Virus record (IMG/VR): IMGVR_UViG_3300042154_002208
Origin: a virus
Lineage: Duplodnaviria; Caudoviricetes
Strand: one strand, 5' to 3'
DNA length: 64,000 nucleotides
Shown here one piece after another: positions 8,169 to 48,997 of the stretch. The notes under the pieces were generated by a model. That model saw only the letters and a list, made by a program, of their open reading frames with translations, was not told the DNA's origin and did no database searches. How positions within the stretch are numbered: the first letter of the stretch is position 1; each line of letters starts with the position of its first letter. A program made the position numbers and the translations under genes.

Positions 8169-8172
8169 TCTG

Positions 8173-8180
8173 TATAAATA
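8173..8180 (+). promoter_or_regulatory. T4-type late promoter
   Basis: TATAAATA upstream of a structured leader. Confidence 0.7.
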
Positions 8181-8186
8181 ATAATA

Positions 8187-8340
8187 TCCCAGGGATGGGA
8201 ACTAGCAGTCCGAGGTAGGCTAGTAAAATATTCCTCGGGCCAATTTCAGTCCCACTACCTTGGGAACGTCTAAAGCTGGTACAACGTATGGTACCCCTGT
8301 AGTCAGTAAGCAGGATTAACGCTATGCCTTCGGGGTAGCA
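8187..8340 (+). ncRNA. Structured leader RNA with an H-type pseudoknot and a C(UUCG)G hairpin upstream of phasin-like/hsp20 genes
   Basis: ACTAGC 8201-06 pairs with GCTAGT 8219-24; CCGAGG 8210-15 with CCTCGG 8233-38. Outer stem 8187-8200/8250-65; UUCG hairpin 8321-39. Confidence 0.6.
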
Positions 8341-8370
8341 AATTTTAAACTCGCTTAATAGGAGAACTAT

Positions 8371-8601
8371 ATGTTTTACGCAAACATGGCTATCGATTCA
8401 ATTCAAGACGCCAAAATCAACTTCCTCAAACAAACAGTCAAGGAAGATTCCCTTCAAAAACCTCTAGTCGATTTTGTAGAAGCACAACGGGTCTTTACAA
8501 AACAAGTTGCTAAGTCTGCTAACGATGTAATGAATATTGCGTCAGAGACTTTTGCTAATTCGATTACTGGTAAAACAAGTAAAAAGGGAGAATCAAAATG
8601 A
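8371..8601 (+). CDS. Small helical protein, possibly phasin-like
   Basis: Strong SD (AGGAG); amphipathic helical pattern. Family assignment is from memory only. Confidence 0.45.
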   Translation: MFYANMAIDSIQDAKINFLKQTVKEDSLQKPLVDFVEAQRVFTKQVAKSANDVMNIASETFANSITGKTSKKGESK

Positions 8602-9122
8602 CATTTGTTCCACAAATATTTGGCCGTGATATGTTCAAAGACTTTGATAAACTATATGTAGGCTTTGACGATCAATTTAGCAAGATGGCCAAGATTCATG
8701 ATGATCTAACAAAGAGCATTCCGAATTATCCACCATACAATATTAAGAAAACTGGCGATACAACTTATGTTATTGAAGTTGCAGTTGCTGGTTTTGCGAG
8801 ACAGGATATTGAAATTGAACTTGCCGATGGCAAAATGATTATTAAAGGCAATGTAAATGGTGCAGAGCAAGAAGATAATTTCTTGTTCAAAGGTATTGCT
8901 AATAGAGCATTTACTCGCACATTTGCTTTAGAAGACCATATTGAAGTTCAAGATGCTGCTATGTTAAATGGTATGCTTAAGATTTTCTTAGAGCGTATTA
9001 TTCCAGAACATAAGAAGCCAAAGAAAATTGAAGTTAAAGATTCTGAAGTAAGCACAAAGCCTACAAAGAAATCTAAGCCTCAATTACTTACAGAAGATCC
9101 TGTAGAAAATAGAAACCTATAA
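8598..9122 (+). CDS. hsp20: Small heat shock protein Hsp20 (IbpA-like)
   Basis: NYPPYNIKK, IEVAVAGF, KGIANRAFTRTFAL and NGMLKIFLER motifs. Confidence 0.95.
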   Translation: MTFVPQIFGRDMFKDFDKLYVGFDDQFSKMAKIHDDLTKSIPNYPPYNIKKTGDTTYVIEVAVAGFARQDIEIELADGKMIIKGNVNGAEQEDNFLFKGIANRAFTRTFALEDHIEVQDAAMLNGMLKIFLERIIPEHKKPKKIEVKDSEVSTKPTKKSKPQLLTEDPVENRNL

Positions 9123-35138: not shown

Positions 35139-35191
35139 GTATCGGACTTAAAATCCGAGTTTTGTGGGTTCGAGTCCCACCTGGCGCACCA
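35115..35191 (+). tRNA. tRNA-Leu(TAA), short variable loop
   Basis: Acceptor GCGCCTG/CTGGCGC, arm TCGGA-CTTAAAA-TCCGA, CCA end; 5' end overlaps the endonuclease stop codon. Confidence 0.9.
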
Positions 35192-35211
35192 TTTTTATAT
35201 TAAAGAAAATT

Positions 35212-35691
35212 ATGTCAATTACATTAAAAAACTTAGAAAGTGCCTTAGCCGGCGAATCTATGGCTCATATTAAATATCGTTACTTTGCACGTATTGCTCG
35301 TGACGAAGGGTTTGAAGATATTGCACAACATTTTGAGCATACTGCAGATCAAGAAATTAAACACGCATGGGGTCATTTGGATTTGCTAGTAGGCACACCA
35401 ACTACCAAAGAGTGTTTGCAACTAGCGATTATGGGTGAAACATACGAGTTCACTAAAATGTATCCTACATTCAAAGCGCAAGCTGAGCAAGAAGGTAATG
35501 CATTTGCCGCAAAAGAGATTGACCATCAGATTTCAGAATCACAAGAGCACGCTGCTCAATTTATGGAAATTATGCAAAAAGCTGAGAAGAGATTTACAGC
35601 ATTGGCAAAGGTTGAAGAACGTCATGCAAAAGCATATGAAGATTTGTTAAATAGTCTTGAATTTAAACAAGCCCTATTGGGAGGCAAATAA
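35212..35691 (+). CDS. rbr: Rubrerythrin
   Basis: LESALAGESMAHIKY, EIKHA, GETYEFTKMYP and ESQEHA di-iron motifs. Confidence 0.92.
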   Translation: MSITLKNLESALAGESMAHIKYRYFARIARDEGFEDIAQHFEHTADQEIKHAWGHLDLLVGTPTTKECLQLAIMGETYEFTKMYPTFKAQAEQEGNAFAAKEIDHQISESQEHAAQFMEIMQKAEKRFTALAKVEERHAKAYEDLLNSLEFKQALLGGK

Positions 35692-35833: not shown

Positions 35834-35910
<77 letters not shown>

Positions 35911-35916
35911 TTTTAT

Positions 35917-36312
35917 ATGATTAATATTCTTGTCAACGGCACATTCGATATTGTTCACAGAGGACATATTGAATTACTTAATTATGCTAGAGGTTGTGGT
36001 CAACAACTTATAGTCTGTATTGATTCGGATAGACGAGTTAAAGAATTAAAAGGTGATAGTAGACCTATTAATAATCAAGATGATAGAAAACATCTGTTAC
36101 AAAATTTAAGAGCAGTTAATGCTGTTCATATATTTGATTCAGCTGAAGAATTAGAAATGCTTTGTAAACAGTATTCGCCTATAATGGTTAAGGGTAGTGA
36201 TTATAAAGATAAGCCTATTGTGGGAAGTCAATATTGTAAAGAGATTAGATTTGTGGATTTGGTAAATGGATATTCAACAACAAAAACAATTCAAAATATT
36301 ATTACTCGGTGA
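35917..36312 (+). CDS. D-glycero-beta-D-manno-heptose 1-phosphate adenylyltransferase (RfaE domain II-like)
   Basis: NGTFDIVHRGH, IDSDRRVKELKGDSRPINNQDDR, VKGSDY and GYSTT motifs. Confidence 0.88.
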   Translation: MINILVNGTFDIVHRGHIELLNYARGCGQQLIVCIDSDRRVKELKGDSRPINNQDDRKHLLQNLRAVNAVHIFDSAEELEMLCKQYSPIMVKGSDYKDKPIVGSQYCKEIRFVDLVNGYSTTKTIQNIITR

Positions 36313-37018
36313 TAATTGTATTGATGTTTATCAGTATGGTGCAGTAGATCGTATCAGTCCTGAAGCACCTGTGCCTGTGTTCAAATTTTCTCACGAAGAA
36401 AAACGAGCAGGCATGGCGGGCAATGTTAAGAATAATCTAATTTCACTTGGTGCAGATGTTACATTCCTACACGGAGAAACTTCTACAAAAACTAGATTGG
36501 TTGACCTTAAAAGCAAACAACATATTGTTAGAATTGATAATGATGTTTTATCTGATGCATTTGTTTTTGATACAAGTATTCCAAAATTATATGACGCAAT
36601 AGTGATTTCCGATTATAATAAGGGAACAATTAGTTATGAGATGGTCGAAGAATTAATTGCAGACTTTAAAGGTCCAGTTTTTATTGATACAAAGAAAACG
36701 GATCTTAAAAGATTTGAAGGTGCAATCGTTAAAATTAATAGTTTAGAAAATAGTTTGGCCAAGACTTTACCTACAGAGTTAATTGTAACTATGGGTAGAT
36801 ATGGGGCACAATATAAAGATCAACAATATTCCGCACCGCACACCGAGGTGTTTGATGTTTGCGGTGCTGGAGATACATTTCTTTCAGCGTTGGTTCTTGA
36901 ATTCTTAAAGACAAACAATATGGAAAAGGCAATTGAGATTGCCAACATTGCAGCTAGTATTACAGTAAAGCATATCGGAGTATATGCACCGACATGGGAA
37001 GAAATAAATGAGGCTTGA
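36266..37018 (+). CDS. Heptose 7-phosphate kinase (RfaE domain I-like, PfkB)
   Basis: RISPEAPVPV, GMAGNV, ISDYNKG and VFDVCGAGDTF motifs. Confidence 0.88.
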   Translation: MDIQQQKQFKILLLGDNCIDVYQYGAVDRISPEAPVPVFKFSHEEKRAGMAGNVKNNLISLGADVTFLHGETSTKTRLVDLKSKQHIVRIDNDVLSDAFVFDTSIPKLYDAIVISDYNKGTISYEMVEELIADFKGPVFIDTKKTDLKRFEGAIVKINSLENSLAKTLPTELIVTMGRYGAQYKDQQYSAPHTEVFDVCGAGDTFLSALVLEFLKTNNMEKAIEIANIAASITVKHIGVYAPTWEEINEA

Positions 37019-37364
37019 GGGGTTTGTTAAAAAAGGTTGGGGTCACGAATTAATCTGGGCTACTAACGATAAGTATTGCGGCAAGTTGATGAAGTTCAAC
37101 AAAGGTGCAAAATTTAGTATGCACTTTCATTCTGAAAAAGATGAATCATGGTATGTACTTGACGGGTTATTCTTTGTTAAATGGATTGATACCAAAACAG
37201 CCAAAGAACAAATTAAGTATCTTAAGCAAGGCGATACTTGGCACAATCCCCCATGCTTACCTCATCAATTGGTTTGTCAGGAAGAAGGTACTATCATTGA
37301 AGTTAGTACACCGGATTCGGTAGAAGATAATTATAGAGTTGCACCTGGAGATAGTCAGGCATGA
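37008..37364 (+). CDS. Cupin (sugar isomerase-like)
   Basis: VKKGWGHE, SMHFHSEKDESWYV, PHQL and EVSTPD motifs. Confidence 0.8.
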   Translation: MRLEGFVKKGWGHELIWATNDKYCGKLMKFNKGAKFSMHFHSEKDESWYVLDGLFFVKWIDTKTAKEQIKYLKQGDTWHNPPCLPHQLVCQEEGTIIEVSTPDSVEDNYRVAPGDSQA

Positions 37365-37669
37365 AGTACATTGTAGATATAGATGGAACAATCTGTTCGG
37401 TTGTTCTTAATGATGATAAGAGTGTGAATTATGATAAAACACAACCACATAAAGATAGAATTGAAAAAATTAATAAGTTATTTGATGAAGGACATGAAAT
37501 AACTTATTGGACAGCTAGAGGTTCTGCTTCTGGAGTTGATAGATCAGAATTAACTAAAAAACAGATGACAGAATGGGGAGCAAAATACCATAAGCTAGTA
37601 TTTTATAAACCCGTTTATGATATTTGGATTGATGATAAAGCTGTAAACAGCGAGGTATATTTCAAATGA
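37361..37669 (+). CDS. Small HAD-superfamily phosphatase
   Basis: DIDGTIC, YWTARG and KPVYDIWIDDKA motifs. Confidence 0.8.
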   Translation: MKYIVDIDGTICSVVLNDDKSVNYDKTQPHKDRIEKINKLFDEGHEITYWTARGSASGVDRSELTKKQMTEWGAKYHKLVFYKPVYDIWIDDKAVNSEVYFK

Positions 37670-38445
37670 AAATATTACTAACAGGTCATAGAGGATTTAT
37701 TGGTTCTAGACTATTGACGGCCTTGCGTGATCGAGGTGATGATGTTGAAACGTATGAATTTGACGATGGCGTAAGACCCGGCGTTATGGATTTTGAATGG
37801 GTTATTCATGCTGGTGCCATCAGTTCAACAACCGAAAAAGATATTGATAAAGTACTAAGACAAAATTACGAATTCTCCATGGACTTATACGACGAGTGTA
37901 AAACATTCGGAGTTAATTTACAGTATTCTAGTTCTGCTAGTGTGTATGGATTGAATAAAGAGTTTTGTGAAAATTCTCCGTTGGATCCAAGAACGCCTTA
38001 TGCTTGGTCAAAGTATTTGTTTGAAAGATATGTAAAACAACATCATCATGATAGTCCCATTGTGCAAGGATTTAGATATTTTAATGTATGGGCTTGGGAA
38101 GGTGAAGAACATAAAGGCAATCAGGCAAGCCCATTTGCTCAGTTTAAGAAACAAGCCATAGAAACAGGTAAGATTAAATTATTTGAGAATAGTGAAAATT
38201 ATCGTAGAGATTTTGTTCATGTGAAATCTATTGTGGATTATCATTTAAAGTTTTTAGAATCAAGTAGATCTGGAATCTTTAATATGGGCACAGGTAAAAC
38301 TATGAGTTTTTATGATGTTGCGGATATGGTTGCAGAAGAATATCATGCGGAGATTGAAATTATTCCGATGCCAGAAATTTTAAAGGCAAGTTATCAGGAG
38401 TATACTTGTGCAGATATGCGCAAGACAAATGAAGTAATATTGTAA
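37666..38445 (+). CDS. hldD: ADP-L-glycero-D-manno-heptose 6-epimerase
   Basis: TGHRGFIGS, HAGAISSTTE, YSSSASVYG, YAWSKYLFE, FRYFNV, RDFVHV and YQEYTCAD motifs. Confidence 0.85.
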   Translation: MKILLTGHRGFIGSRLLTALRDRGDDVETYEFDDGVRPGVMDFEWVIHAGAISSTTEKDIDKVLRQNYEFSMDLYDECKTFGVNLQYSSSASVYGLNKEFCENSPLDPRTPYAWSKYLFERYVKQHHHDSPIVQGFRYFNVWAWEGEEHKGNQASPFAQFKKQAIETGKIKLFENSENYRRDFVHVKSIVDYHLKFLESSRSGIFNMGTGKTMSFYDVADMVAEEYHAEIEIIPMPEILKASYQEYTCADMRKTNEVIL

Positions 38446-38447
38446 AT

Positions 38448-38521
38448 GCGGGGTTCGTATAGTGGTAATACCTTAGCCTTCCAAGCTAAAGCGAGGAGTT
38501 CGATTCTCCTACCCCGCTCCA
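38448..38521 (+). tRNA. tRNA-Gly(TCC)
   Basis: Acceptor GCGGGGT/ACCCCGC, loop CTTCCAA, U73, CCA end. Confidence 0.94.
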
Positions 38522-39674: not shown

Positions 39675-39965
39675 ATGCCACTATTTATCGTTGAAACTAT
39701 TACTACATTTCGTCATTACTATGCCATTGAGTGTGAGTCAGCAGAACACGCTGAAGACACAGTAGTTATGCAAGAAGCTCAAGAACTAGACCAAAAATGT
39801 TTAGGCGAGACCATTGTATCAACACGAGAAATTACTACTAAAGAATTTTATCAAATTGCAAAAGACAGTATGAACGGACATCTTGCTGAGAAAATGATTC
39901 ATAAAGTAGATTACGGTAATCACACTCAACCTAATCACGCAAGTAATGTGGATGGATATGTATAA
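39675..39965 (+). CDS. Hypothetical protein
   Basis: Clean ORF; LFIVETITTFRHYYAIE. Confidence 0.65.
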   Translation: MPLFIVETITTFRHYYAIECESAEHAEDTVVMQEAQELDQKCLGETIVSTREITTKEFYQIAKDSMNGHLAEKMIHKVDYGNHTQPNHASNVDGYV

Positions 39966-40518
39966 TTTTGAAGATCCCAAAGTTCGCAAAGAAGCAAAAC
40001 GTCTACATCAGATCAGACGTTTAGATGCCAGACCACTTACTGCAGATGAGGATGCCATTGCTACAGCATTTGGTAAATGGGATTATCAAAAGAAAAAAGA
40101 AAGCTTGACTCCTGAGCAAAAAGCGGCAATTAGAGTCAAAACTCGTATTGCGAATAGAGCAAAGAAAGCATCGCCTGAAAAATTCGGTATTACCGAATAC
40201 GTTGCTCTAAAGAATCGAGTTGCCGCTCATGAGAAAAAAGGTCGTAAGATGACGTTTAATCTTACTCCCCAATATATTCAGAGCAAGTTCGACGCATGCG
40301 AAGGTAAATGTGCCGTCACTAAACTTCCTTTTAGTATGGAACTTGGCACAAAGGGCAATAGAAATCCATTCCGTCCTAGCGTAGATCGTATTAACTCTAA
40401 AAAAGGGTATGTCAAAGGCAATATTCAGATTATTCTGGCAATTGTTAACACCATGAAGATGGATTATACTGATGATATACTACATCCGGTAATTAAAGCA
40501 TGGCATAAAAACATCTAA
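39955..40518 (+). CDS. HNH-like endonuclease
   Basis: CEGKCAVT, PSVDRINSKKGYVKGNIQII and VNTMK motifs. Confidence 0.75.
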   Translation, partial: DMYNFEDPKVRKEAKRLHQIRRLDARPLTADEDAIATAFGKWDYQKKKESLTPEQKAAIRVKTRIANRAKKASPEKFGITEYVALKNRVAAHEKKGRKMTFNLTPQYIQSKFDACEGKCAVTKLPFSMELGTKGNRNPFRPSVDRINSKKGYVKGNIQIILAIVNTMKMDYTDDILHPVIKAWHKNI

Positions 40519-40527
40519 TTTACACTA

Positions 40528-40551
40528 AAGCCGGCGTTAATCGCCGGTTTC
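40528..40551 (+). terminator. Terminator-like hairpin
   Basis: AAGCCGGCG TTAAT CGCCGGTTT. Confidence 0.7.
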
Positions 40552-40613
40552 CTACGAGTTCCGCAACTTTAATTTATATAAATATAAGTATAATTCGTTT
40601 CAATGGACTAAAA

Positions 40614-41963
40614 ATGCAGGCAAGACTTTCATTCAAAGCGTATAGGGCGCTTGTCGAATCTCACGATTTCTCAAATCTAACACCCTATCACCAATATAAA
40701 ACAGAAGATGGACACGATGTGCATGTGCATGTCTTTAGAGACGGTGATCATAAAACAGCAATTTTCCATAACAATACATTAGGTGCAATTACAAAGATTG
40801 TGTCTTTTCCTCACTCTTCTAATCTAAGCAAAGAAGAATTAGTCCATGCAGGAAAAGAAGTAAAGCATGATAATATTATGGAAGCGGCCGCGCCATCATT
40901 AGATGCGGATACCGCAGGCAAAGTAGCTGAAGTTGCTCTGGCAAAAGAGATGATCAACCATAAACACAAGCAAGCAGGCACATTTGGTGCTGCCGAACAT
41001 AAAAAAGAATTAAAGCCATACAACGATGAGATGATTCAATTGTCTAGCGGCAAAGATGCAGATCAAATTGCCATTAGAGAAGCTCACGGCAAAGCAATGG
41101 CAGCAGGAGTTATTAAACATATCGACGAACATCATCCTGGCGCAACAGTTACAGATGTGGGTAGAACTGCTAAACCTGGAGATATTGCTAGATTTACAAA
41201 AGGTGTTCATACTGACGGACAAGAGAATCCATCAGATGTTACTTTAAAATTAAATCACCCCGATGGAGCTGAAACATATATGGGAGTGTCCGCAAAGTCA
41301 ACGGGCAAATCTTCTGGCAATATTACTGCAAAAAATCCAGGTGTTGCGGGACAAGATGAATTTTTATCAAGTGGTCCGGCAACAAGAAAATCTAGAGCAA
41401 ATGAAATTGCTCAAGAAGGTAGAGCAGCAATTCTCAAAAAATATAAATTAGAAGGTCTGCCAGATAAGTCTACTAAAGGCGATTCAAGAAAAGCTAGAGT
41501 TACATCAGTTAATCCTGAAACAGGAAAACCCGAAATTAATGAACTCGGCAAAAAGATGAATGTAGAGTTTAAAAAGAATAATGAAGAAACTGCACGCGAA
41601 TTGCAAATACAATTAGGACACCTTGCATCATTGGGCCCTAAAGGTCACGCACATATTGGAAAATGGTTGCATAGCAATCTAGTATCTTCCGAAGGTATGC
41701 CATGGATCAAGGCAACAGGGCACGGTAAGGAAATGAATAAGGTTCATGCTGTTGTTAAGCCTGGTAGCGATTCTCCGTTAAATGCAGTATTAACAGATAA
41801 GAAGACCAGATATGCGGTTCATCGTTCCACATCTGCAGTAACAGTACACAAAGAAGAAAAAGATGGGACACATATTCCAATCGTTAGAATTGGGGCAAAA
41901 CCCAAATCACACGGGGCATATTCAAGCCAAGTATATAACTTCACACCATCGAGTAATTTCTAA
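40614..41963 (+). CDS. Late protein with PD-(D/E)xK nuclease-like motif
   Basis: TATAAATA at 40577; ENPSDVTLK...MGVSAKS. Confidence 0.55.
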   Translation: MQARLSFKAYRALVESHDFSNLTPYHQYKTEDGHDVHVHVFRDGDHKTAIFHNNTLGAITKIVSFPHSSNLSKEELVHAGKEVKHDNIMEAAAPSLDADTAGKVAEVALAKEMINHKHKQAGTFGAAEHKKELKPYNDEMIQLSSGKDADQIAIREAHGKAMAAGVIKHIDEHHPGATVTDVGRTAKPGDIARFTKGVHTDGQENPSDVTLKLNHPDGAETYMGVSAKSTGKSSGNITAKNPGVAGQDEFLSSGPATRKSRANEIAQEGRAAILKKYKLEGLPDKSTKGDSRKARVTSVNPETGKPEINELGKKMNVEFKKNNEETARELQIQLGHLASLGPKGHAHIGKWLHSNLVSSEGMPWIKATGHGKEMNKVHAVVKPGSDSPLNAVLTDKKTRYAVHRSTSAVTVHKEEKDGTHIPIVRIGAKPKSHGAYSSQVYNFTPSSNF

Positions 41964-43132
41964 TGTTATCATTTGGCACATACTTAGTTGAATCTGCGAA
42001 CGAGGAAAAGTTAACACACCTCGAACACGCAGAAGATCACCCTATTAATGCAGGGGAAGAAGGCTTTAAGCACGTATTCAATACTTTAAACGAAACACAC
42101 AATGCTTTGTTAGGCAAAAGATCAAAGGCATCTTTATCCACAAAGTATGATGGCTCGCCTAGTATTGTGTTTGGCACTCACCCGGAGTTTCCTAGATTCT
42201 TTGTTGCATCCAAATCTGCATTCAACAAGAATCCCAAATTAAATTTTACAGAATCTGATATTGAAAAGAATCATGGTCACGCACCCGGACTTGTTGCCAA
42301 ATTAAAAGCAGCTCTATACCACTTGCCTAAAGTAACTCCCAACGAAGGGGTGTTTCAAGGCGACGTAATGTATAATAAGTCGGATAAAGATGTGTCAGAC
42401 TCTGGCGGGTCATATCATTTTAAGCCTAACACAATTACATACTCTGCTAAAAAGGGCAGTGAAGAAGGGCAAAAGATCAAAGATGCTAAATTTGGTGTGG
42501 CAGTTCATACAGCATATCGTGGAGATACGCTTGAGAACATGAAGGCTGAGTATAACACCGACACTTCTAAATTTAATTCACATCCAGATGTGCACGTAGT
42601 TGATACTAAGTTTGATCCTAAGACTGCACATTATACCCCTGATGCTCAACAAGAATATCATTCTCATATGGCAAAGGCAGTTGAAGCTCACAATGATTTA
42701 CCCAATTACGATCATCTCGAAGGTCACGACGTATCATTAAAGACATATATTAATTCAACTGTGAGAGACACCTCAATACCATCGGTAGAGGGTTATAAAA
42801 AACATCTACAAGGTTCTCTGCAGAAAGACATTGACAAAGTTAAAACCGATAAAGCCAAACAAAACAAAGCTGCGGATATGAATGAAAAGTTAGATCATAT
42901 TGATACCAATAAAGATTCATTTAAAAAGACTTTGGATATTCATAAACATCTGCAAAATGCAAAAAATGTTTTGGTTAATACCATGTCAAATGCAGATTAT
43001 AAATTTCATCATAGTATTGATGGTAAAAAAGTTAAACCCGAAGGTCATGTTGCAGTATTAAACAACAGACCCACAAAACTAGTAGATAGAGCAGAATTTA
43101 GTGCAGCTAACTTTGCAGCGAGACCAAGATGA
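41963..43132 (+). CDS. Conserved T4-like protein (DUF6267-like) with KxDG motif
   Basis: LTHLEHAED, TKYDGSPSIVFG, FFVASKSAFNKNPK, FQGDVMY, PEGHV and KLVDRAEFS motifs. Confidence 0.7.
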   Translation: MLSFGTYLVESANEEKLTHLEHAEDHPINAGEEGFKHVFNTLNETHNALLGKRSKASLSTKYDGSPSIVFGTHPEFPRFFVASKSAFNKNPKLNFTESDIEKNHGHAPGLVAKLKAALYHLPKVTPNEGVFQGDVMYNKSDKDVSDSGGSYHFKPNTITYSAKKGSEEGQKIKDAKFGVAVHTAYRGDTLENMKAEYNTDTSKFNSHPDVHVVDTKFDPKTAHYTPDAQQEYHSHMAKAVEAHNDLPNYDHLEGHDVSLKTYINSTVRDTSIPSVEGYKKHLQGSLQKDIDKVKTDKAKQNKAADMNEKLDHIDTNKDSFKKTLDIHKHLQNAKNVLVNTMSNADYKFHHSIDGKKVKPEGHVAVLNNRPTKLVDRAEFSAANFAARPR

Positions 43133-43563
43133 AAACATTTAAACAAGTACGAGAAGAATTGCTTTATGAAAATAAAGATGCTTGCTATTATAAAGTCAAA
43201 AGCCGCTATAGCGTTTGGCCTTCAGCATATGCTAGCGGAGCGTTAGTTAAATGCCGCAAAGTTGGTGCGGCAAATTGGGGAAATTCTAGTAAAAATGAAG
43301 ATACAATCGCAGATACTACTGTACAAGTAGATGAAAATTTAAACAAATGGTTTAAAGACAAATGGGTTCGTTTTGGACCTGATGGTAAAATACGAGGAGA
43401 TTGTGCGAGAGAAGATGATACTGAAGGTAAACCAAAATGTTTACCGCAAAGTCAAGCGCATAGTTTGGGAAAAGAAGGGCGAGCCAAAGCCGCCGCAAGA
43501 AAACGCAGAGAAGATCCTAATGCAGAACGCAGAGGCCCTGCAATTAATGTAGCTACAAAGTAA
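43129..43563 (+). CDS. Putative head-packaged protein
   Basis: MKTFKQVREE N-terminus; WPSAYASGALVKCRK and PKCLP modules. Confidence 0.7.
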   Translation: MKTFKQVREELLYENKDACYYKVKSRYSVWPSAYASGALVKCRKVGAANWGNSSKNEDTIADTTVQVDENLNKWFKDKWVRFGPDGKIRGDCAREDDTEGKPKCLPQSQAHSLGKEGRAKAAARKRREDPNAERRGPAINVATK

Positions 43564-43569
43564 ATTAAA

Positions 43570-44259
43570 ATGAAAACATTTAAACAACTAATAGAAGAAA
43601 TTCAATCCATTGACGAAGGCAATCGTCCCGGGTTATGGGATAACATTCACGCAAAACGCAAACGAATCAAATCTGGATCCGGAGAACGTATGCGTGCACC
43701 TGGAAGTGATGGCGCGCCATCCAAACAAGACTTTAAAAATGCGTCAGAAACCGTGGCAGAAGCCAAAAAAGACAAAGCCAAGGGTGCCGACGGTAAAGCA
43801 TGCTGGGATGGATATCGTTACAGTGGTACAACAAACGGCAAAGATGATTGTGTTAAGGTTGAAGAAGCGGAAGAACTGTTTGACTTAATCGAAGATGTGA
43901 TCGAAGATATTGCAAAAGAAAACAATGTTGATTCAGATGTGATTTGGGAAGACCTTAAAGATATCTCAGATGAGGATCTATTTGAAGTCGCAGCTTGGCA
44001 ACGCAAAGAGGGAAAGAATCCTGAAGGCGGATTAAACGCTAAGGGTGTTGCTTCATATCGTAGAGAAAATCCCGGTTCAAAACTACAAATGGCTGTAACT
44101 ACTAAACCATCTAAATTAAAGCCCGGAAGTAAAGCAGCTAATAGAAGAAAATCTTTTTGTGCTCGTATGGGCGGAATGAAGAAGCGATTAACATCTGCAG
44201 AGACTGCTAGAGATCCTGATTCAAGAATTAACAAAGCACTAAGAAAGTGGAATTGTTAA
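43570..44259 (+). CDS. Putative head-packaged modular basic protein
   Basis: MKTFKQLIEE N-terminus; GLWDNIHAKRKR, CWDGY and RRKSFCARM...RINKALRKWNC modules. Confidence 0.75.
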   Translation: MKTFKQLIEEIQSIDEGNRPGLWDNIHAKRKRIKSGSGERMRAPGSDGAPSKQDFKNASETVAEAKKDKAKGADGKACWDGYRYSGTTNGKDDCVKVEEAEELFDLIEDVIEDIAKENNVDSDVIWEDLKDISDEDLFEVAAWQRKEGKNPEGGLNAKGVASYRRENPGSKLQMAVTTKPSKLKPGSKAANRRKSFCARMGGMKKRLTSAETARDPDSRINKALRKWNC

Positions 44260-44480
44260 TGCTTCTTATCACTGAGCCTCATAGCATATAATAACATCAT
44301 GTCAATAGTTTGTCTATAAATTTTGGTTAACTTTGGATAAAAAGGAGGCAAGATGAGCTGGTTCAAACACAAACCTAAAAAAAATCCCCCTAAACCAAAA
44401 CACCCCTATCCTATACCTCCGATAAACCAAACATCCTTATTTTATAAATAATAAGTATCAACTATATTCTAATGGACCAC

Positions 44481-46418
44481 ATGGACTTTAAACAATTCAT
44501 CACAGAAGCGCCTGAAAAAACAGCAGCTTTTGCCTTTGGGCGATTCAATCCGCCTACCGTTGGACACGAAAAACTCATTAATAAAGTCAAATCCGTTGCC
44601 GATGAGCACAATGCTACTGCACATATTGTAGCATCCCATTCTGAAGGTACATCAAAAGATCCTGTTCCTGCCAAGGCCAAGGTAGGATATCTAAAACACG
44701 TAGCACCTGAAGGCACTAAGGTATCAGGTGCTTCTAAAGACTCTCCAACTTTTTTACACGCTGCAGCAAAATTGCACGGCCAAGGCTATAAGCATTTGGT
44801 TATGGTGGCTGGTTCGGATCGTGTGGATGAGTATCACAAAACATTAAACAAGTATAACAATGTCGCCAGCAAGCACGGCCACTACAATTTTAAATCAATT
44901 AAAGTAGTTTCAGCTGGGCAAAGAGACCCTGATGCAGAAGGCGTAGAGGGAATGTCTGGAACTAAGATCCGTGCTCATGCCAGAGCAGGTGAAATGAAAC
45001 AATTTAAATCTGGTCTTCCTAAAGCATTACATCCTCATGCAGAGGAAATTGCCAACCATATCAAAGCGGTTAAAGAAGATTACGAAAATCCAAATAGATT
45101 TGATTGGGGAACACCTGCGGGCACAGATCATGCCATCGGTATGACTCCTGAAATGAAGATTGTTTGTCCTGTTGGTGAAGTATTCAGTAAGGATAAAGGA
45201 ATGTGCGTGCCAGTAAGAGAGTCTTACATAGCAGGCGAGATTTTTAAATTAAACGATTTAGTTGAATCAACTAACGGGACACGGGGCAAGATCGTATATA
45301 GAGGCTCATCATACGTTACCATACAACAAGAAAACGGCGATACATCTAAACATTGGCTAAAAGACATACAAGAAATATTTGGCGAAAAAGCAGGCACAGG
45401 ACTACACGTTGATCTACGCCCCAAATTATCTAAGACTTCAAAGTTACAAAACTTCAAGAAATTTTCTGACGGACCTCAGGAAAAAGAAAAAATCAAATAC
45501 AAAGGCGCATATAAGCCAGCATATGTTGAGGGAAAACAAATCCCTGCATTGTTCCTATCCAAAGAACAATTGTCTGAAATGAGCAACAGTAGAATGGAAG
45601 TTACATTCGATGGTTATACCTCATCATTTATTCATACGTGCCCTGGTGCATCGGCTCAATTAAAAGAATTAATTGCCAGAGTTGAACTTCCAAAGAAATA
45701 TGTTTTGCAGGCAATTATGGCAACAGATCAATATCTTGAAATTGAAAAAGAAGCAAAGGCAAAAGGCTTTGCGAATGATCAAATGATTCATGACTTTAAT
45801 ATGAAGTTTGCTATTGCACATGACACAATGAATATACTAGGTGTTGAAGATAAGGATTTACTGTATATGCAAACACATTTGAAAACCATGTCCGACCTTA
45901 ATATGCATAGAGATGGCACATATGCAAATGATCCAGGCTCAACAGTAACAGTTGTGGGCGCCGGCAGTGTAGAAGAAGATGTTGCGTCTGCAGATTTTGA
46001 ATATATTCCAAGCAAAGACCCAATAACCGGTAAAGTAACATACGTTAAGCATCGTGCTAGAATGATAGATACTTCTACCAAAGAACGACCAAAGACTTTA
46101 TCTTCAATTAGACAGAGTCAAAAAGATAAAGATGAGGAAAACAAAATGAAACTCAAAGAAGCAAGTGAGAGAGATGTCAACTTTACAGACAATAAAGATG
46201 TATTTCATGGCATAGATAAGCCCATTGCTGGTCAAGGTCACCCTGACAAACCAGTTGGTATGGTATCATTCAAATCGTTTATTCAAGATCCACAACATCA
46301 AGCATTTACAAAATATCATGATGCTGATAGACAAGAAGTTCATGCAGCACAGGCAAAGATTGCAGGGCAAAAGTCATCCGCATATAAAATGATGAAGAAA
46401 GCTAGCCAGGCAGAATAA
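44481..46418 (+). CDS. Cytidylyltransferase-like (HxGH) multidomain protein
   Basis: FGRFNPPTVGHEKL, VAGSDRV and SAGQRDPDAEGVEGMSGTKIR motifs; TATAAATA at 44443; MDFKQFITE start. Confidence 0.8.
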   Translation: MDFKQFITEAPEKTAAFAFGRFNPPTVGHEKLINKVKSVADEHNATAHIVASHSEGTSKDPVPAKAKVGYLKHVAPEGTKVSGASKDSPTFLHAAAKLHGQGYKHLVMVAGSDRVDEYHKTLNKYNNVASKHGHYNFKSIKVVSAGQRDPDAEGVEGMSGTKIRAHARAGEMKQFKSGLPKALHPHAEEIANHIKAVKEDYENPNRFDWGTPAGTDHAIGMTPEMKIVCPVGEVFSKDKGMCVPVRESYIAGEIFKLNDLVESTNGTRGKIVYRGSSYVTIQQENGDTSKHWLKDIQEIFGEKAGTGLHVDLRPKLSKTSKLQNFKKFSDGPQEKEKIKYKGAYKPAYVEGKQIPALFLSKEQLSEMSNSRMEVTFDGYTSSFIHTCPGASAQLKELIARVELPKKYVLQAIMATDQYLEIEKEAKAKGFANDQMIHDFNMKFAIAHDTMNILGVEDKDLLYMQTHLKTMSDLNMHRDGTYANDPGSTVTVVGAGSVEEDVASADFEYIPSKDPITGKVTYVKHRARMIDTSTKERPKTLSSIRQSQKDKDEENKMKLKEASERDVNFTDNKDVFHGIDKPIAGQGHPDKPVGMVSFKSFIQDPQHQAFTKYHDADRQEVHAAQAKIAGQKSSAYKMMKKASQAE

Positions 46419-46419
46419 T

Positions 46420-46854
46420 ATGGAATTGTTGCAATTATCTTTACAGAAGACATTGGCAGATGCGTTTACAATGTACTTCAAGGCTCATACATTTCATTGG
46501 AATGTAGAGGGTCCTGATTTTAAACAGTATCACGATTTGTTTGGTGGTATCTATGAAGAAGTATATGGATCTATAGATTTGCTTGCTGAGCATATTCGAC
46601 AAATTGACGCATATACACCTACATCATTAAAACAACTCTCAGGGCTTACAGTTGTAACTGAAGATGAAACTGTAATGCCAGCGTTACAAATGATTAAAAG
46701 TTTAATGGATGCAAACAGCATGGTACTTGCTTCATTAATGCTTTCTTATAGAGATGCGGACAATGCATCCGAATTAGGTTTGGCAAATTTCTTGCAAGAT
46801 AGAATTGCCGCTCATCAGAAACATGCTTGGATGCTAAAAGCAACACTAAAATGA
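46420..46854 (+). CDS. dps: Dps/ferritin-like protein
   Basis: KAHTFHWNVEGPDFKQYHDLF, DLLAEHIRQI and HQKHAWML motifs. Confidence 0.92.
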   Translation: MELLQLSLQKTLADAFTMYFKAHTFHWNVEGPDFKQYHDLFGGIYEEVYGSIDLLAEHIRQIDAYTPTSLKQLSGLTVVTEDETVMPALQMIKSLMDANSMVLASLMLSYRDADNASELGLANFLQDRIAAHQKHAWMLKATLK

Positions 46855-47303
46855 TTACTTTTCAAGAATTTTTAAGTACCGATATAACGGAAGAAGAATT
46901 AGATTCTATTGTGGAAGAACTACAATGGGAAGACATTGAGCATTTATATGCAGACGACGAATTTGAAAATGAATTAGATGAAGCTCTTTCTGCAACAGCT
47001 AGAATGCAAAAATCGCAAAAATTTAAATCTAGAAAAACAGCAGTTGGACAAGCTCGCAGATTAAAATTAAGACGAGCATCATCTACAGATGTTATTAATC
47101 GTAGATCAAAAGTTGCTGCTAGACAAATGGTAATTAGAAAACTTTTAAAAGGCAGAGATAAAAAACAATTATCCGCTGCTGAAAAAGATAGAATTGAGAA
47201 ACAAGCATCTAATATTCTAGCAGGACAAAAAGGACTCGTTGTAAGAATGATTCCTAAAGTTAGAAGTTTAGAGCGATCAAGATTAGCTGGCAAAAAGAAA
47301 TGA
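46851..47303 (+). CDS. Putative head-packaged protein (acidic N-half, basic C-half)
   Basis: MITFQEFLST start; LDEA cleavage-like site before the basic domain. Confidence 0.7.
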   Translation: MITFQEFLSTDITEEELDSIVEELQWEDIEHLYADDEFENELDEALSATARMQKSQKFKSRKTAVGQARRLKLRRASSTDVINRRSKVAARQMVIRKLLKGRDKKQLSAAEKDRIEKQASNILAGQKGLVVRMIPKVRSLERSRLAGKKK

Positions 47304-47350
47304 TTTCGGTTAGCCATAAATAATAAATAGAATTCATTAAAGGACCTAGA

Positions 47351-48409
47351 ATGACAAGAATTACAAATGAATTGTTTGAATCAATCAGACAAATTACAAA
47401 TCCAACTCCAGTTCAAGAAGTAAAAATGGATGCGGTTGGAAAAGAAGACGCGGACATTAACAACGATAAAATTGCCGCAACTGTCAAAGAAGGCAGAGTA
47501 GATGCTGCTCACTTCTGCGCAACACACGTTGAACACGATCTATATGGTGAAGGCGAGTGCATTTCAGAAGCACATGCTGATCCAGATGAGAATGGAAATA
47601 TTGCTTGGTATACAGTACAATTTGCTGACGGTGTTCGCAAAGTACAAACCGAAGCAGTTAAAGTTAAAAAAGGCAAGATGCATGAGCATGCTGAAGCAGA
47701 TGCAGAATCAATTGAAGAAAAGAAACTACATCCTAATCAACAAGTATTAGATGTGCATGAGCCAGAGAAAGATAAATTAACTGCTAAAGATTTTGAAATG
47801 CTACGTAAGGGCAAAAAACAAAAGGCAGTCAAAGAAGGAACTATGGGCAATGCTGGAACTGTTACCATGAAACAAGTTAACAAAAGCAGCGCATCGCCTA
47901 CAGTTAAGAAAGCAATTAAAAAAGCTGCACCTGATATTAAATCTTATGCTGACAGAGCAGCTGCTCTAACAGCTGCAGGTATTAAGAGAGAATCAGTTGA
48001 AGAAGGCATATCAGAAACTATTGTTAAGCATAATGACTTTACAATCGAAATTACTGATAATCCTACATATGGTGACTTCTTAAGAGCAGTTCAATCTATT
48101 GTTAGAACAGATGAAGAATCAATGCAACAAGAAATTGTTGCTATTGCTGAAGAAGCATATGCAGAAAATTATGAAGATGTGATTATTGAATCATTCACTA
48201 GAATGGAAATTGAAGATAAGTTAGCTGCTCACCGCAAGGCGGGCAACACAGTATCAAACGATAAGTTTAGTACTAAAAACGGAGAACCTTATGCTGAGTA
48301 TGTTGTGACTGATAAAGAAGGTGGACGTAAGAAATATATTCACCATGGATCGGTTCGTCGCATGGAATCAATGCCAGGTAAAACAGCTAAATCTTCCAAA
48401 GAAGAATAA
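47351..48409 (+). CDS. Late acidic protein, prohead-core-like
   Basis: CATAAATA at 47315; many (I/V/L)xE sites; DAVGKEDADINND and KLHPNQ..LD modules. Confidence 0.6.
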   Translation: MTRITNELFESIRQITNPTPVQEVKMDAVGKEDADINNDKIAATVKEGRVDAAHFCATHVEHDLYGEGECISEAHADPDENGNIAWYTVQFADGVRKVQTEAVKVKKGKMHEHAEADAESIEEKKLHPNQQVLDVHEPEKDKLTAKDFEMLRKGKKQKAVKEGTMGNAGTVTMKQVNKSSASPTVKKAIKKAAPDIKSYADRAAALTAAGIKRESVEEGISETIVKHNDFTIEITDNPTYGDFLRAVQSIVRTDEESMQQEIVAIAEEAYAENYEDVIIESFTRMEIEDKLAAHRKAGNTVSNDKFSTKNGEPYAEYVVTDKEGGRKKYIHHGSVRRMESMPGKTAKSSKEE

Positions 48410-48451
48410 GCACCATAGTGTTTCAATAAATATAAAAACAGGGAGACAAAA

Positions 48452-48997
48452 ATGTCAGCATGGGGAAAATTAGATAGAAGAGAAGTTGGCGCAACAGCAC
48501 GCGCTAATTTAGGTAGCACAACAGTTGTTACAAGCACTGCTGCAGTTACTGCTGCGAATGGCTTTCAAGCCGGGTATTCATTGGTAATTGCAAACGTGGA
48601 CTATAGAATTGAAACTATTAGTACATCCAATACAATTATTCTTGATACCGCATATCGTGGCGCAAATGTAGCAGCTGCCAATATTGCTATTCAAGAAGAT
48701 CCAAAATGGATTACAACAAATGGGCGTGGCACTACAATGGCTTCTGGTCGTGGTCCTAACACAACCAATAAGGCCAACGTATACGGTGTTGACCGTACTG
48801 AAGTTGGTGTTGCTGGTAATAAAGCAAACGGGTTTAGCCAACCAGGTTGGGTTTCATATAAAACATATACTACCACTCAGGGCGCAACAAGAAACAAAGT
48901 TGAAGTATTAGTAGCAAGTTCAAAGAACTTTAATGCTAATGCCACAGGTGTATTGCAAGGTGATGCTAACGATAACACTATATTGCCAAATAGCTAA
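48452..48997 (+). CDS. Putative virion structural protein
   Basis: MSAWGKLD, VYGVD, PGWVSY and RNKVEVLVA motifs; heads the fibre cluster. Confidence 0.65.
   Translation: MSAWGKLDRREVGATARANLGSTTVVTSTAAVTAANGFQAGYSLVIANVDYRIETISTSNTIILDTAYRGANVAAANIAIQEDPKWITTNGRGTTMASGRGPNTTNKANVYGVDRTEVGVAGNKANGFSQPGWVSYKTYTTTQGATRNKVEVLVASSKNFNANATGVLQGDANDNTILPNS

What the first reader, a model, noticed from the sequence alone, without database searches (positions are those of the whole stretch)
35917..38445. ADP-heptose-like pathway with split RfaE and non-canonical stand-ins for GmhA and GmhB
Seen: adenylyltransferase, PfkB kinase, cupin, small HAD phosphatase and HldD epimerase are coupled and bracketed by tRNAs; there is no SIS-fold GmhA or canonical GmhB. 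Established: the pathway needs isomerase, kinase, phosphatase, nucleotidyltransferase and epimerase. Inference: the five genes map one-to-one, with the cupin as isomerase and the small HAD as phosphatase, giving a variant NDP-heptose route for host LPS or virion modification.
Basis: partly seen in the sequence, partly recalled or inferred. Interest (0 to 1): 0.62.

Follow-up and report, generated by a model that had tools for sequence, protein, structure and literature searches.

The report
Phage heptose operon with stand-in enzymes
An uncultured T4-like lake phage carries a five-gene operon that most likely makes the activated sugar ADP-heptose from scratch, with a small metal-binding cupin doing the job of the usual first enzyme (GmhA) and a 102-residue phosphatase doing the job of GmhB; no enzyme assay has tested either swap.

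Summary
Five overlapping + strand genes fill 35917-38445 exactly, between tRNA-Met and tRNA-Gly: HldC-type adenylyltransferase, HldA-type PfkB kinase, 118-aa cupin, 102-aa HAD and HldD-type epimerase. No SIS GmhA or canonical GmhB lies in the window.

The one-to-one mapping is well supported by comparison but not by biochemistry.
- **HAD:** its closest solved relative is phage HY126 AfhF, a sugar 1,5-bisphosphate phosphatase. In 80 related viral loci this slot holds the mini-HAD, a GmhB-like HAD or an NT5C-like HAD, never two together.
- **Cupin:** it keeps a His/His/Glu/His metal site and travels with the kinase in 73 of 80 viral loci, in many gene orders. GmhA appears in none of them.
- **Cellular genomes:** of 32 kinase-bearing Patescibacteria, 26 have GmhA, 3 have the cupin beside or fused to the kinase and no GmhA, and none has both. 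One operon reads kinase~cupin, AT~GmhB, HldD, GT9 heptosyltransferase.

The same cassette is in cyanophages P-SSM2 and S-CAM1, where both small genes are misnamed. The use of the sugar cannot be settled from this window. This scan has reported the same swap on many other genomes; I found no publication describing it.

The parts
34242..34270 (+). Perfect sigma-70-type promoter consensus (TTGACA-17-TATAAT). It is the nearest upstream candidate for transcribing tRNA-Leu, rubrerythrin, tRNA-Met and the cassette as one unit.
   Evidence: 12 of 12 matches. This is a consensus match only, and its function is inferred.
35834..35910 (+). tRNA-Met (CAT) with an encoded CCA end. It ends 6 nt before the ATG of the first cassette gene.
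   Evidence: Two related phages have the same tRNA-6 nt-ATG junction with other tRNAs.
35917..36312 (+). HldC-type heptose-1-phosphate adenylyltransferase (131 aa). This is step 4: heptose 1-phosphate plus NTP gives NDP-heptose.
   Evidence: TIGR02199 at 2.5e-34, 118 bits, below the 181.5 cut-off. It is 38% identical to the C-terminal domain of E. coli HldE. The HRGH and GYSTT motifs are present.
36266..37018 (+). HldA-type PfkB heptose-7-phosphate kinase, trimmed form (250 aa). This is step 2.
   Evidence: TIGR02198 at 8.4e-46, 156 bits, below the 345 cut-off. It is 31% identical to the N-terminal domain of E. coli HldE, with three deletions. The RISPEAPVP and GAGD motifs are kept. More than 580 viral contigs encode relatives.
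37008..37364 (+). Metal-binding monocupin (118 aa), the candidate sedoheptulose-7-phosphate isomerase. This is step 1, in place of the SIS-fold GmhA.
   Evidence: Cupin_2 at 7.9e-08, with sub-threshold PF01050 phosphomannose isomerase. H39, H41, E46 and H86 are conserved. The model has pLDDT 93.7. Its linkage to the kinase, one fusion to it, and its exclusion with GmhA are shown.
37361..37669 (+). Minimal cap-less HAD phosphatase (102 aa), the candidate heptose-1,7-bisphosphate 7-phosphatase. This is step 3, in place of GmhB.
   Evidence: HAD motifs D6, D8, T51, K83, D91 and D92 are invariant in 33 homologues. The profile hits 9IQW (AfhF) at 8e-19, and 9IQW is the top Foldseek match at 33% identity. 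The mini-HAD alternates with GmhB-like and NT5C-like HADs.
37666..38445 (+). HldD-type ADP-heptose 6-epimerase, short form (259 aa). This is step 5.
   Evidence: TIGR02197 at 1.9e-65, 221 bits, below the 274.6 cut-off. It is 39% identical to E. coli HldD over the whole length, with a deletion of about 25 residues in the N-terminal region. The aligned stretches SSSASVYG, YAWSK and EEHKG match YASSAATYG, YGYSK and EGHKG of HldD.
38448..38521 (+). tRNA-Gly (TCC), starting 2 nt after the stop codon of the epimerase gene.

Best explanation
[quoted passage not shown] The cupin, a divalent-metal aldose-ketose isomerase of the same chemical type as cupin phosphomannose and D-lyxose isomerases, converts sedoheptulose 7-phosphate into D-glycero-D-manno-heptose 7-phosphate. 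This step is inferred.
2. The trimmed PfkB kinase phosphorylates C1. This rests on homology to HldE domain I.
3. The 102-residue HAD removes the 7-phosphate from the 1,7-bisphosphate. This is inferred from family membership with AfhF, which removes the distal phosphate of arabinose 1,5-bisphosphate.
4. The adenylyltransferase makes the NDP-heptose. This rests on homology to HldE domain II.
5. The short SDR epimerises C6''. This rests on homology to HldD.

Two of the five enzymes are therefore non-orthologous replacements of GmhA and GmhB. The operon is probably transcribed together with the tRNA array.

The acceptor of the heptose is not encoded in the cassette. A heptosyltransferase elsewhere in the genome presumably uses the donor on virion fibres or on the host envelope.
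For: **Homology of three steps.**

**HAD.**
- All four HAD motifs are kept in a family of more than 1400 proteins, all about 100 aa long.
- The closest solved relative is 9IQW, 'phage HY126 encoded D-arabinose 1,5-diphosphate phosphatase AfhF'. PMC13326640 describes it as an Mg-dependent phosphatase in an isomerase-kinase-phosphatase-nucleotidyltransferase route.
- In 80 viral loci, 7 hold the mini-HAD, 15 a GmhB-like HAD and 10 an NT5C-like HAD, with no locus holding two.

**Cupin in viral loci.**
- It lies within 8 kb of the kinase in 73 of 80 loci, in 16 different arrangements. GmhA is in 0 of 80.
- The complete genomes of P-SSM2, S-CAM1 and a 162-kb phage with terminal repeats (G007) have the cupin and no GmhA. 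In G007 the cupin lies 46 kb from the cassette.

**Cupin in cellular genomes.**
- In 401 Patescibacteria genomes, 32 have the kinase. Of these, 26 also have GmhA, mostly adjacent to the kinase. Three have no GmhA and carry the cupin adjacent or fused. None has both. My own Fisher test on the 32 gives p of about 0.004.
- Genome G247 has GT4, GT4, kinase~cupin fusion (439 aa), AT~GmhB fusion (392 aa), HldD and a GT9 heptosyltransferase in one operon.
- Genome G085 has cupin, kinase, GmhB and AT in a row, about 1.5 kb from lepA.

Against: - No enzyme of this cassette has been assayed.
- The three homology-assigned enzymes all score below NCBIfam's equivalog cut-offs, and two are shortened.
- In the Patescibacteria sample, 13 of the 16 genomes with the strongest cupin matches have no kinase. 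The six of these whose surroundings I read are more distant cupins in unrelated contexts.
- 48 of 80 viral loci show no HAD within 8 kb, so a phage-encoded phosphatase is not always needed or lies elsewhere.
- The rest of this phage's genome and its host are unknown, so a host GmhA or GmhB cannot be excluded here.
Confidence: 0.72

Rival explanations
1. The cupin is not the isomerase. It tailors the finished NDP-heptose, or a keto intermediate of it, for example as a C3 or C3/C5 epimerase in the manner of the CapF or WbuC cupins. Sedoheptulose 7-phosphate isomerisation would then be left to the host's GmhA.
For: - There is a weak WbuC-family hit, 20.6 bits against a cut-off of 42.
- The cupin often sits next to the SDR gene.
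- Relatives carry extra tailoring genes inside the cassette: a 2OG oxygenase, a methyltransferase and an aminotransferase fragment.
Against: - Eleven viral loci carry the cupin with AT and kinase and no HldD-like gene within 8 kb. The Patescibacteria loci L011 and L012 carry cupin, AT and kinase with no HldD-like match. Archaeal locus L017 has only HAD, kinase and cupin.
- No 4-keto-forming dehydratase or oxidase is in the cassette. From my own knowledge, not tested here, the HldD-type enzyme works at C6''.
- This reading does not explain why the kinase-linked cupin and GmhA exclude each other, nor how the GmhA-less G247 operon with its GT9 transferase would obtain heptose 7-phosphate.
Confidence: 0.15
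2. The mini-HAD is not the pathway phosphatase. It would be a nucleotidase or another housekeeping phosphatase that happens to sit in the operon, and a host GmhB or an unspecific phosphatase would remove the 7-phosphate.
For: - The only Pfam hit is to the PNKP phosphatase domain, below threshold, and there is no NCBIfam hit.
- The hhalign probability against E. coli GmhB is only 29%.
- 48 of 80 viral loci have no HAD near the cassette.
- One of the alternative HADs is of the NT5C deoxyribonucleotidase family.
- From my own knowledge, not tested here: E. coli gmhB mutants are leaky, so the step can be bypassed.
Against: - The gene is translationally coupled on both sides by 4-nt overlaps.
- The same small gene is in the cassette of P-SSM2 and S-CAM1.
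- It never co-occurs with a GmhB-like or NT5C-like HAD in 80 loci.
- Its nearest characterised relative acts on a sugar 1,5-bisphosphate in an analogous pathway.
Confidence: 0.1
3. The cassette makes a sugar nucleotide other than a heptose, for example an NDP-hexose by the same isomerase-kinase-phosphatase-transferase logic. The heptose names would then be only best-hit artefacts.
For: All three heptose-family matches lie below the curated equivalog cut-offs. The cupin resembles hexose-phosphate isomerases as much as anything else.
Against: - Three independent genes each have a heptose-pathway family as by far their best match.
- They are 31-39% identical to E. coli HldE and HldD over their full length.
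- From my own knowledge, an HldD-type C6'' epimerase only makes sense for a seven-carbon sugar.
- In G247 the orthologous operon ends in a GT9 heptosyltransferase, PF01075 at 5.7e-21.
Confidence: 0.04

Closest known systems
Bacterial ADP-L-glycero-beta-D-manno-heptose pathway (GmhA, HldE or split HldA + HldC, GmhB, HldD)
   Same: The pathway has the same five chemical steps. The kinase, adenylyltransferase and epimerase are homologous, at 31%, 38% and 39% identity to the E. coli enzymes. The split HldA/HldC layout is already known from some bacteria.
   Different: The isomerase slot holds a cupin instead of the SIS-fold GmhA. The phosphatase slot holds a 102-aa cap-less HAD instead of the roughly 190-aa GmhB. 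The kinase and epimerase are shortened by about 60 and 50 residues. The operon sits inside a phage tRNA array.
Cyanomyovirus heptose gene set (P-SSM2 PSSM2_309-313; S-CAM1 SXBG_00220-00216; also S-SSM7, S-CAM3, S-SM2, P-TIM68)
   Same: It has the same five gene families at 34-56% amino-acid identity. The published genome announcement PMC7378029 lists them as 'heptose-related lipopolysaccharide synthesis' genes.
   Different: The order of HAD and cupin is swapped, and the epimerase is on the opposite strand in the cyanophages. There the cassette lies next to a carbamoyltransferase and tail-fibre genes, not inside a tRNA array. The public records call the mini-HAD 'phosphoheptose isomerase' and the cupin 'cysteine dioxygenase' or 'nucleotidyltransferase'. 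The domain evidence contradicts all of these names.
AfhF of E. coli phage HY126 (PDB 9IQW), D-arabinose 1,5-bisphosphate phosphatase of the UDP-arabinose route for DNA arabinosylation
   Same: It is in the same mini-HAD family: profile E-value 8e-19, top Foldseek match, 33% identity. It has the same place in an isomerase, anomeric kinase, distal phosphatase, nucleotidyltransferase scheme in a T4-like phage.
   Different: AfhF is 123-134 aa against 102 aa here. Its partners are an SIS arabinose-5-phosphate isomerase and a different kinase/uridylyltransferase. Its substrate is a pentose and its product goes onto DNA. No DNA-glycosylation partner of the cassette was seen in this window.
Cupin-type phosphosugar and sugar aldose-ketose isomerases (archaeal monocupin phosphomannose isomerases 7ZVM/7ZVY, type II PMI domain PF01050, D-lyxose isomerases 2Y0O/7NZO)
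   Different: Sequence identity is only 14-20%. Pfam PF01050 and PF07385 are below threshold. The proposed substrate has seven carbons. The structural similarity is no greater than to unrelated cupin enzymes.

Membership tests
HldC / HldE domain II heptose-1-phosphate adenylyltransferase (TIGR02199) | Score over the curated equivalog cut-off of 181.5 bits | tested here: not met
   118.2 bits at E 2.5e-34. It is still by far the best family, ahead of glycerol-3-phosphate cytidylyltransferase at 47.7 bits.
HldC / HldE domain II heptose-1-phosphate adenylyltransferase (TIGR02199) | Nucleotidyltransferase HxGH motif and C-terminal (F/L)xxGxSTT motif | tested here: met
   HRGH is at residues 14-17 and LVNGYSTT at 115-122. 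The protein aligns with E. coli HldE residues 343-471 at 38% identity.
HldA / HldE domain I heptose-7-phosphate kinase (TIGR02198, PfkB) | Score over the curated equivalog cut-off of 345 bits | tested here: not met
   156.5 bits in three stretches. The protein lacks about 60 residues relative to HldE domain I.
HldA / HldE domain I heptose-7-phosphate kinase (TIGR02198, PfkB) | PfkB GAGD anion-hole/catalytic Asp motif and the N-terminal RxSPEAPVP stretch shared with HldE | tested here: met
   G200, A201, G202, D203, R29 and P32 are invariant in the alignment of 11 kinases. Residues 11-70 align with E. coli HldE 13-71.
HldD ADP-glyceromanno-heptose 6-epimerase (TIGR02197) | Score over the curated equivalog cut-off of 274.6 bits | tested here: not met
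   221.1 bits at E 1.9e-65. About 25 residues are missing after the first Rossmann strand.
HldD ADP-glyceromanno-heptose 6-epimerase (TIGR02197) | SDR GxxGxxG, the Ser/Tyr-x3-Lys triad, and the extra catalytic Lys in the HKG motif. The roles of these residues are taken from memory of the HldD literature. | tested here: met
   TGHRGFIG, SSSASVYG, YAWSK and EEHKG align with the corresponding E. coli HldD stretches at 39% overall identity.
GmhA sedoheptulose-7-phosphate isomerase (SIS fold; TIGR00441, PF13580) | SIS-fold domain recognisable by the family model | tested here: not met
   No match in the window, in 80 related viral loci, or in the complete genomes of P-SSM2, S-CAM1 and G007. The cupin model is an all-beta barrel. 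It can work like GmhA but is not a member of the family.
GmhB heptose-1,7-bisphosphate phosphatase (HAD subfamily IIIA) | Recognisable homology to GmhB beyond the shared HAD motifs | tested here: not met
   No NCBIfam hit. The hhalign probability against E. coli GmhB is 29% over 62 columns. The GmhB structure 3L8H ranks only 46th in Foldseek, at E 0.045.
HAD phosphatase superfamily | Motifs I (DxDxT), II (S/T), III (K) and IV (DD), and a Rossmann-like core | tested here: met
   D6, D8, T10, T51, K83, D91 and D92 are invariant in 33 sequences. The model has pLDDT 90.5 with alternating strands and helices.
AfhF-like mini-HAD sugar-bisphosphate phosphatases (PDB 9IQW, 1XPJ) | Significant sequence and fold similarity over the whole short protein | tested here: met
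   hmmsearch gives 8e-19 to 9IQW over profile positions 4-99, and 2.4e-07 to 1XPJ. These are Foldseek ranks 1-5. Substrate specificity is not testable here.
Cupin-type phosphomannose isomerase (PF01050; 7ZVM/7ZVY) | Score over Pfam's gathering threshold of 23.6 bits | tested here: not met
   19.1 bits at E 0.0016. Some close homologues do carry a precomputed PF01050 hit.
Cupin-type phosphomannose isomerase (PF01050; 7ZVM/7ZVY) | Monocupin fold with a His/His/Glu/His metal site | tested here: met
Cupin-type phosphomannose isomerase (PF01050; 7ZVM/7ZVY) | Aldose-ketose isomerase activity on a phosphosugar | not testable with these tools
   This needs an enzyme assay.

The most novel reading that the evidence does not exclude
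The 118-residue cupin founds a second, unrelated family of sedoheptulose-7-phosphate isomerases (EC 5.3.1.28). It would be used in place of GmhA by hundreds of aquatic T4-like phages, including model cyanophages, by some Patescibacteria and, judging from locus L017 and earlier scan notes, by some archaea.

Together with an AfhF-type mini-HAD it would let a phage make ADP-heptose from a central metabolite without any host heptose enzyme. This would also supply the phosphatase step that commentaries on Tang et al. (Science 2024) report as missing from viruses (PMC11461863).
Probability: 0.7. Interest if true: 0.75.

Novelty: new variant of a known kind. Interest (0 to 1): 0.64.

Why it matters
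ADP-heptose is the building block of the inner core of Gram-negative LPS, the donor for protein heptosylation, and an innate-immune agonist sensed by ALPK1.

- **A second isomerase family.** GmhA has been treated as the only entry to the pathway, and from my own knowledge it is studied as an antibiotic-adjuvant target. An unrelated isomerase family would change how genomes are scored for the ability to make heptose. Surveys that look only for GmhA and GmhB would miss these phages, Patescibacteria and archaea.
- **The virus phosphatase gap.** It would fill the 'no phosphatase in viruses' gap noted for the cross-kingdom survey.
- **Annotation.** It would correct misnamed genes in widely used cyanophage reference genomes.
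- **Phage biology.** It would show that many aquatic phages pay for a complete private supply of an activated heptose. That points to an important but still unidentified use, on virion fibres or on the host surface.

Tried and rejected
- **Close relatives in GenBank phages.** megablast of 20 kb found nothing. blastn found only about 350-bp stretches of about 67% identity to cyanophage epimerase genes.
- **Whole-genome search of the window's own genome.** Not possible, because no genome is held.
- **First scan of genome contigs.** Run with the single cupin sequence, it found nothing. The alignment-based scan worked.
- **Fold searches for the cupin** (Foldseek PDB, VIA second look, BFVD). These confirm a metal cupin, but isomerases, epimerases, dioxygenases and decarboxylases are tied, so I draw no function from them.
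- **GT9 heptosyltransferase near the cassette.**
  - jackhmmer from E. coli WaaC and WaaF found none in the window or within 8 kb of the kinase in the 80 viral loci.
  - PF01075 in five longer viral contigs gave one sub-threshold hit, 16.5 bits, in a 449-aa TPR-containing protein of G007, about 2 kb upstream of its cassette.
  - That protein is not related to the window's 449-aa ORF at 40614-41963.
- **Genes just downstream of the cassette** (39946-48997). They hold no glycosyltransferase domain.
- **Nucleotide specificity via the 'STTR5' arginine.** The window's enzyme has R111 four residues before LVNGYSTT. The commentary's wording does not let me place the diagnostic position, and the residue is not conserved in the four other viral ATs that matched the motif search. 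I draw no conclusion.
- **Literature.** No open-access paper combines cupin with GmhA, or with sedoheptulose-7-phosphate isomerase and heptose. Tang et al. 2024 itself is not held.
- **Strong cupin matches in Patescibacteria without a kinase.** I read the surroundings of six of the thirteen. They are more distant cupins in unrelated contexts, so I did not count them as orthologues.
Full report
**What is there.** The window is part of an uncultured T4-like myovirus. It has a gp43-type DNA polymerase, gp45/gp44 clamp and loader, a DnaB-like helicase, giant fibre proteins and 25 tRNA genes, at about 36% G+C. Earlier notes of this scan call it a lake-water phage. No GenBank phage is close to it at the DNA level.

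Between tRNA-Met (35834-35910) and tRNA-Gly (38448-38521) lie five + strand genes whose starts overlap the preceding stops:
- adenylyltransferase, 35917-36312, 131 aa;
- PfkB kinase, 36266-37018, 250 aa;
- cupin, 37008-37364, 118 aa;
- HAD, 37361-37669, 102 aa;
- SDR epimerase, 37666-38445, 259 aa.

**The three homology-assigned steps.** The best families by a wide margin are rfaE domain II, rfaE domain I and heptose_epim. Against E. coli the proteins are 38% identical to HldE residues 343-471, 31% to HldE residues 13-299, and 39% to HldD over its full length.

The diagnostic motifs are kept: HRGH and GYSTT in the transferase, RISPEAPVP and GAGD in the kinase, and GxxGxxG, SSSAS, YxxxK and HKG in the epimerase. 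All three score below NCBIfam's equivalog cut-offs. The kinase and epimerase are about 60 and 50 residues shorter than the E. coli enzymes.

These short forms are the norm in more than 580 viral contigs, so they are a conserved variant, not decay.

**No canonical GmhA or GmhB.** tblastn and iterated HMM searches seeded with E. coli GmhA and GmhB find nothing in the 64-kb window. The rest of this phage genome is not available.

**The small HAD.** Its 1408 database relatives are all about 96-117 aa long, so the protein is complete. The four HAD motifs are invariant: D6, D8, T10; T51; K83; D91, D92. The AlphaFold model is confident, at pLDDT 90.5.

A profile of the family hits PDB 9IQW at 8e-19 and 1XPJ at 2e-07. 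Foldseek ranks 9IQW first at 33% identity and titles it 'phage HY126 encoded D-arabinose 1,5-diphosphate phosphatase AfhF'.

PMC13326640 describes AfhF as an Mg-dependent phosphatase that removes the distal phosphate of arabinose 1,5-bisphosphate. It works in a route of isomerase, anomeric kinase, phosphatase and nucleotidyltransferase in T4-like phages. That route has the same logic as the heptose pathway. The protein is not a GmhB: hhalign probability is 29%, and there is no NCBIfam hit.

**The phosphatase slot in relatives.** I fetched 80 viral loci around the closest kinase relatives and classified their ORFs.
- 7 loci, plus the window, hold the mini-HAD.
- 15 hold a GmhB-like HAD of about 190-225 aa.
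- 10 hold an NT5C-family HAD of about 160 aa. Seven of these sit inside or directly beside the cassette.
- No locus holds two kinds.

Three unrelated HADs alternating in one operon slot is what non-orthologous displacement of one function looks like. Forty-eight loci show no HAD within 8 kb, so the step is not always encoded nearby.

**The cupin: sequence and structure.** It has more than 4000 database relatives, many at 75-85% identity. The canonical metal-binding cupin motifs are conserved: H39, H41, E46 and H86. So is a set of polar residues: K9, K26, K44, E98, S100, T101, D107 and R110.

The model is confident, at pLDDT 93.7. Structure searches return only 'metal cupin':

All are within the noise of one another. 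Weak profile hits go to phosphomannose isomerase and D-lyxose isomerase families. From my own knowledge, those enzymes make the aldose with manno configuration at C2, which is the stereochemistry of the GmhA reaction. This is suggestive, not decisive.

**The cupin: genomic evidence.**
1. In the 80 viral loci the cupin lies within 8 kb of the kinase in 73, and in 74 counting a fragment at a contig end. It appears in 16 different arrangements, and GmhA is in none.
2. The complete genomes of cyanophages P-SSM2 and S-CAM1 have the same five genes and no SIS GmhA. A complete 162-kb phage (G007) whose cassette lacks the cupin encodes it 46 kb away, and also has no GmhA.
3. The cupin sits beside the kinase and adenylyltransferase in MAG contigs labelled as many phyla, some of which may be misbinned phage DNA. 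Two Patescibacteria loci and two archaeal ones are among them.
4. In an even sample of 401 Patescibacteria genomes, 32 have the kinase.
   - 26 of these have GmhA, usually the neighbouring gene.
   - 3 have no GmhA and instead have the cupin adjacent or fused.
   - 3, with the kinase on small contigs, show neither.
   - None has both. My Fisher test on these 32 gives p of about 0.004; it is not corrected for relatedness.
5. Genome G247 carries one operon of GT4, GT4, a 439-aa kinase~cupin fusion, a 392-aa adenylyltransferase~GmhB fusion, HldD and a GT9 heptosyltransferase. Genome G085 has cupin, kinase, GmhB and adenylyltransferase in a row, about 1.5 kb from lepA.

In those two cellular operons every step except the isomerase is filled by a canonical enzyme. 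The only extra protein is the cupin, and in G247 the product is evidently a GT9 donor. This is the strongest argument that the cupin is the sedoheptulose-7-phosphate isomerase.

**Rivals.** A tailoring role for the cupin, as a CapF- or WbuC-like epimerase, is the main alternative. It rests on tied structural matches. It does not explain the exclusion with GmhA, the GmhA-less G247 operon, or the 11 viral loci where the cupin sits with kinase and transferase and no HldD-like gene lies within 8 kb. I give it about 0.15. I give about 0.1 to the mini-HAD being an unrelated phosphatase, and about 0.04 to the sugar not being a heptose.

**Relation to what is known.** Phage heptose genes are not new. 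Cyanophage records have listed them for years, and PMC7378029 names them as heptose-related LPS genes. But the records call the mini-HAD 'phosphoheptose isomerase' and the cupin 'cysteine dioxygenase' or 'nucleotidyltransferase', which the domain evidence contradicts.

Commentaries on Tang et al. (Science 2024) state that the phosphatase is absent from viruses. The three HAD types found here answer that. I found no open-access paper proposing a cupin-type sedoheptulose-7-phosphate isomerase.

Within this scan, the same reading has been reached on more than 150 other genomes, including a DPANN archaeon with a kinase-cupin fusion. My tests were run independently and agree with it. What I did not see in the summaries of those notes: the link to AfhF/9IQW, the three-way exclusive phosphatase slot, the Patescibacteria counts, and the G247 operon with its GT9 transferase.

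**Use of the sugar.** No heptosyltransferase is recognisable in the window or next to the cassette in relatives. Earlier notes place GT9/BAHT-like genes and a modification cluster among adhesin genes about 10 kb beyond the window's end. I could not check that. In cyanophages the cassette adjoins a carbamoyltransferase and tail-fibre genes. Virion decoration is therefore a reasonable guess, but it is not shown. The window also holds a second sugar module at 657-4989.

**Verdict.** It is a new variant of a known pathway, with two non-orthologous enzymes, and still awaits an assay.

Noticed in passing
window 35905-35919; L061 7630-7645; L032 7636-7651: In three phages the ATG of the adenylyltransferase gene lies exactly 6 nt after the encoded CCA end of a tRNA. 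The tRNA differs each time (Met, Arg, Val), the hexamer is A/T-rich (TTTTAT, AATAGT, AATATT), and there is no Shine-Dalgarno sequence. tRNA 3' processing may therefore create a nearly leaderless mRNA for the cassette.
   Followed up: partly
L061, L032, L037, L051, L035, L094: The heptose cassette sits inside or at the edge of the tRNA array in several related phages, directly bracketed by tRNAs in L061, L032 and L037. The placement in this window is therefore a recurring arrangement, not an accident.
   Followed up: partly
window 657-4989: A second sugar module lies just before gp45/gp44. It holds a dTDP-glucose 4,6-dehydratase-like SDR (299.9 bits, below the 365 cut-off), a 232-aa unknown, two GT2 glycosyltransferases, a DUF3310 protein and another SDR.
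   Followed up: partly
L002 4701-5382 (P-SSM2 PSSM2_311, PSSM2_312); L001 4695-5355 (S-CAM1 SXBG_00218, SXBG_00217): RefSeq names the mini-HAD 'phosphoheptose isomerase' and the cupin 'cysteine dioxygenase'. GenBank versions call the cupin 'putative nucleotidyltransferase'. The domain content contradicts all of these names.
   Followed up: yes
L024 7173-7658, L064 9097-9579 and eight more loci: A roughly 160-aa NT5C-family HAD occupies the phosphatase position of the cassette in 10 of 80 viral loci. It is a third alternative to GmhB.
   Followed up: partly
L066 7072-7641; L030 2032-2586; L024 9503-10081; L001 1928-3610: Relatives carry tailoring genes inside or beside the cassette: a 2OG-Fe(II) oxygenase, a methyltransferase, a DegT-type aminotransferase fragment and a NodU-like carbamoyltransferase. 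The final sugar is probably a decorated heptose in some phages.
   Followed up: no
L061 9097-9402 versus 8037-8741: The mini-HAD of this viral contig is 95% identical to the window's, while its kinase is only 59% and its cupin 74% identical. The cassette is mosaic, with recent exchange of single genes.
   Followed up: no
L012 8001-13266: In a Patescibacteria MAG the cupin, a NUDIX hydrolase, the adenylyltransferase and the kinase are followed by a split transketolase-like pair (E1_dh and Transket_pyr/C) and a zinc alcohol dehydrogenase. This may be a private supply of the ketose phosphate.
   Followed up: no
window 35164-35691 and 46420-46854: A rubrerythrin gene sits between two tRNAs just upstream of the cassette, and a ferritin-like gene lies further downstream. 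The phage carries iron or oxidative-stress proteins.
   Followed up: no
window 36247 (R111 of the adenylyltransferase): An arginine lies four residues before the LVNGYSTT motif, near the position said to give heptose nucleotidyltransferases CTP/UTP promiscuity ('STTR5'). It is not conserved in four related viral enzymes, and the exact diagnostic position could not be verified.
   Followed up: partly
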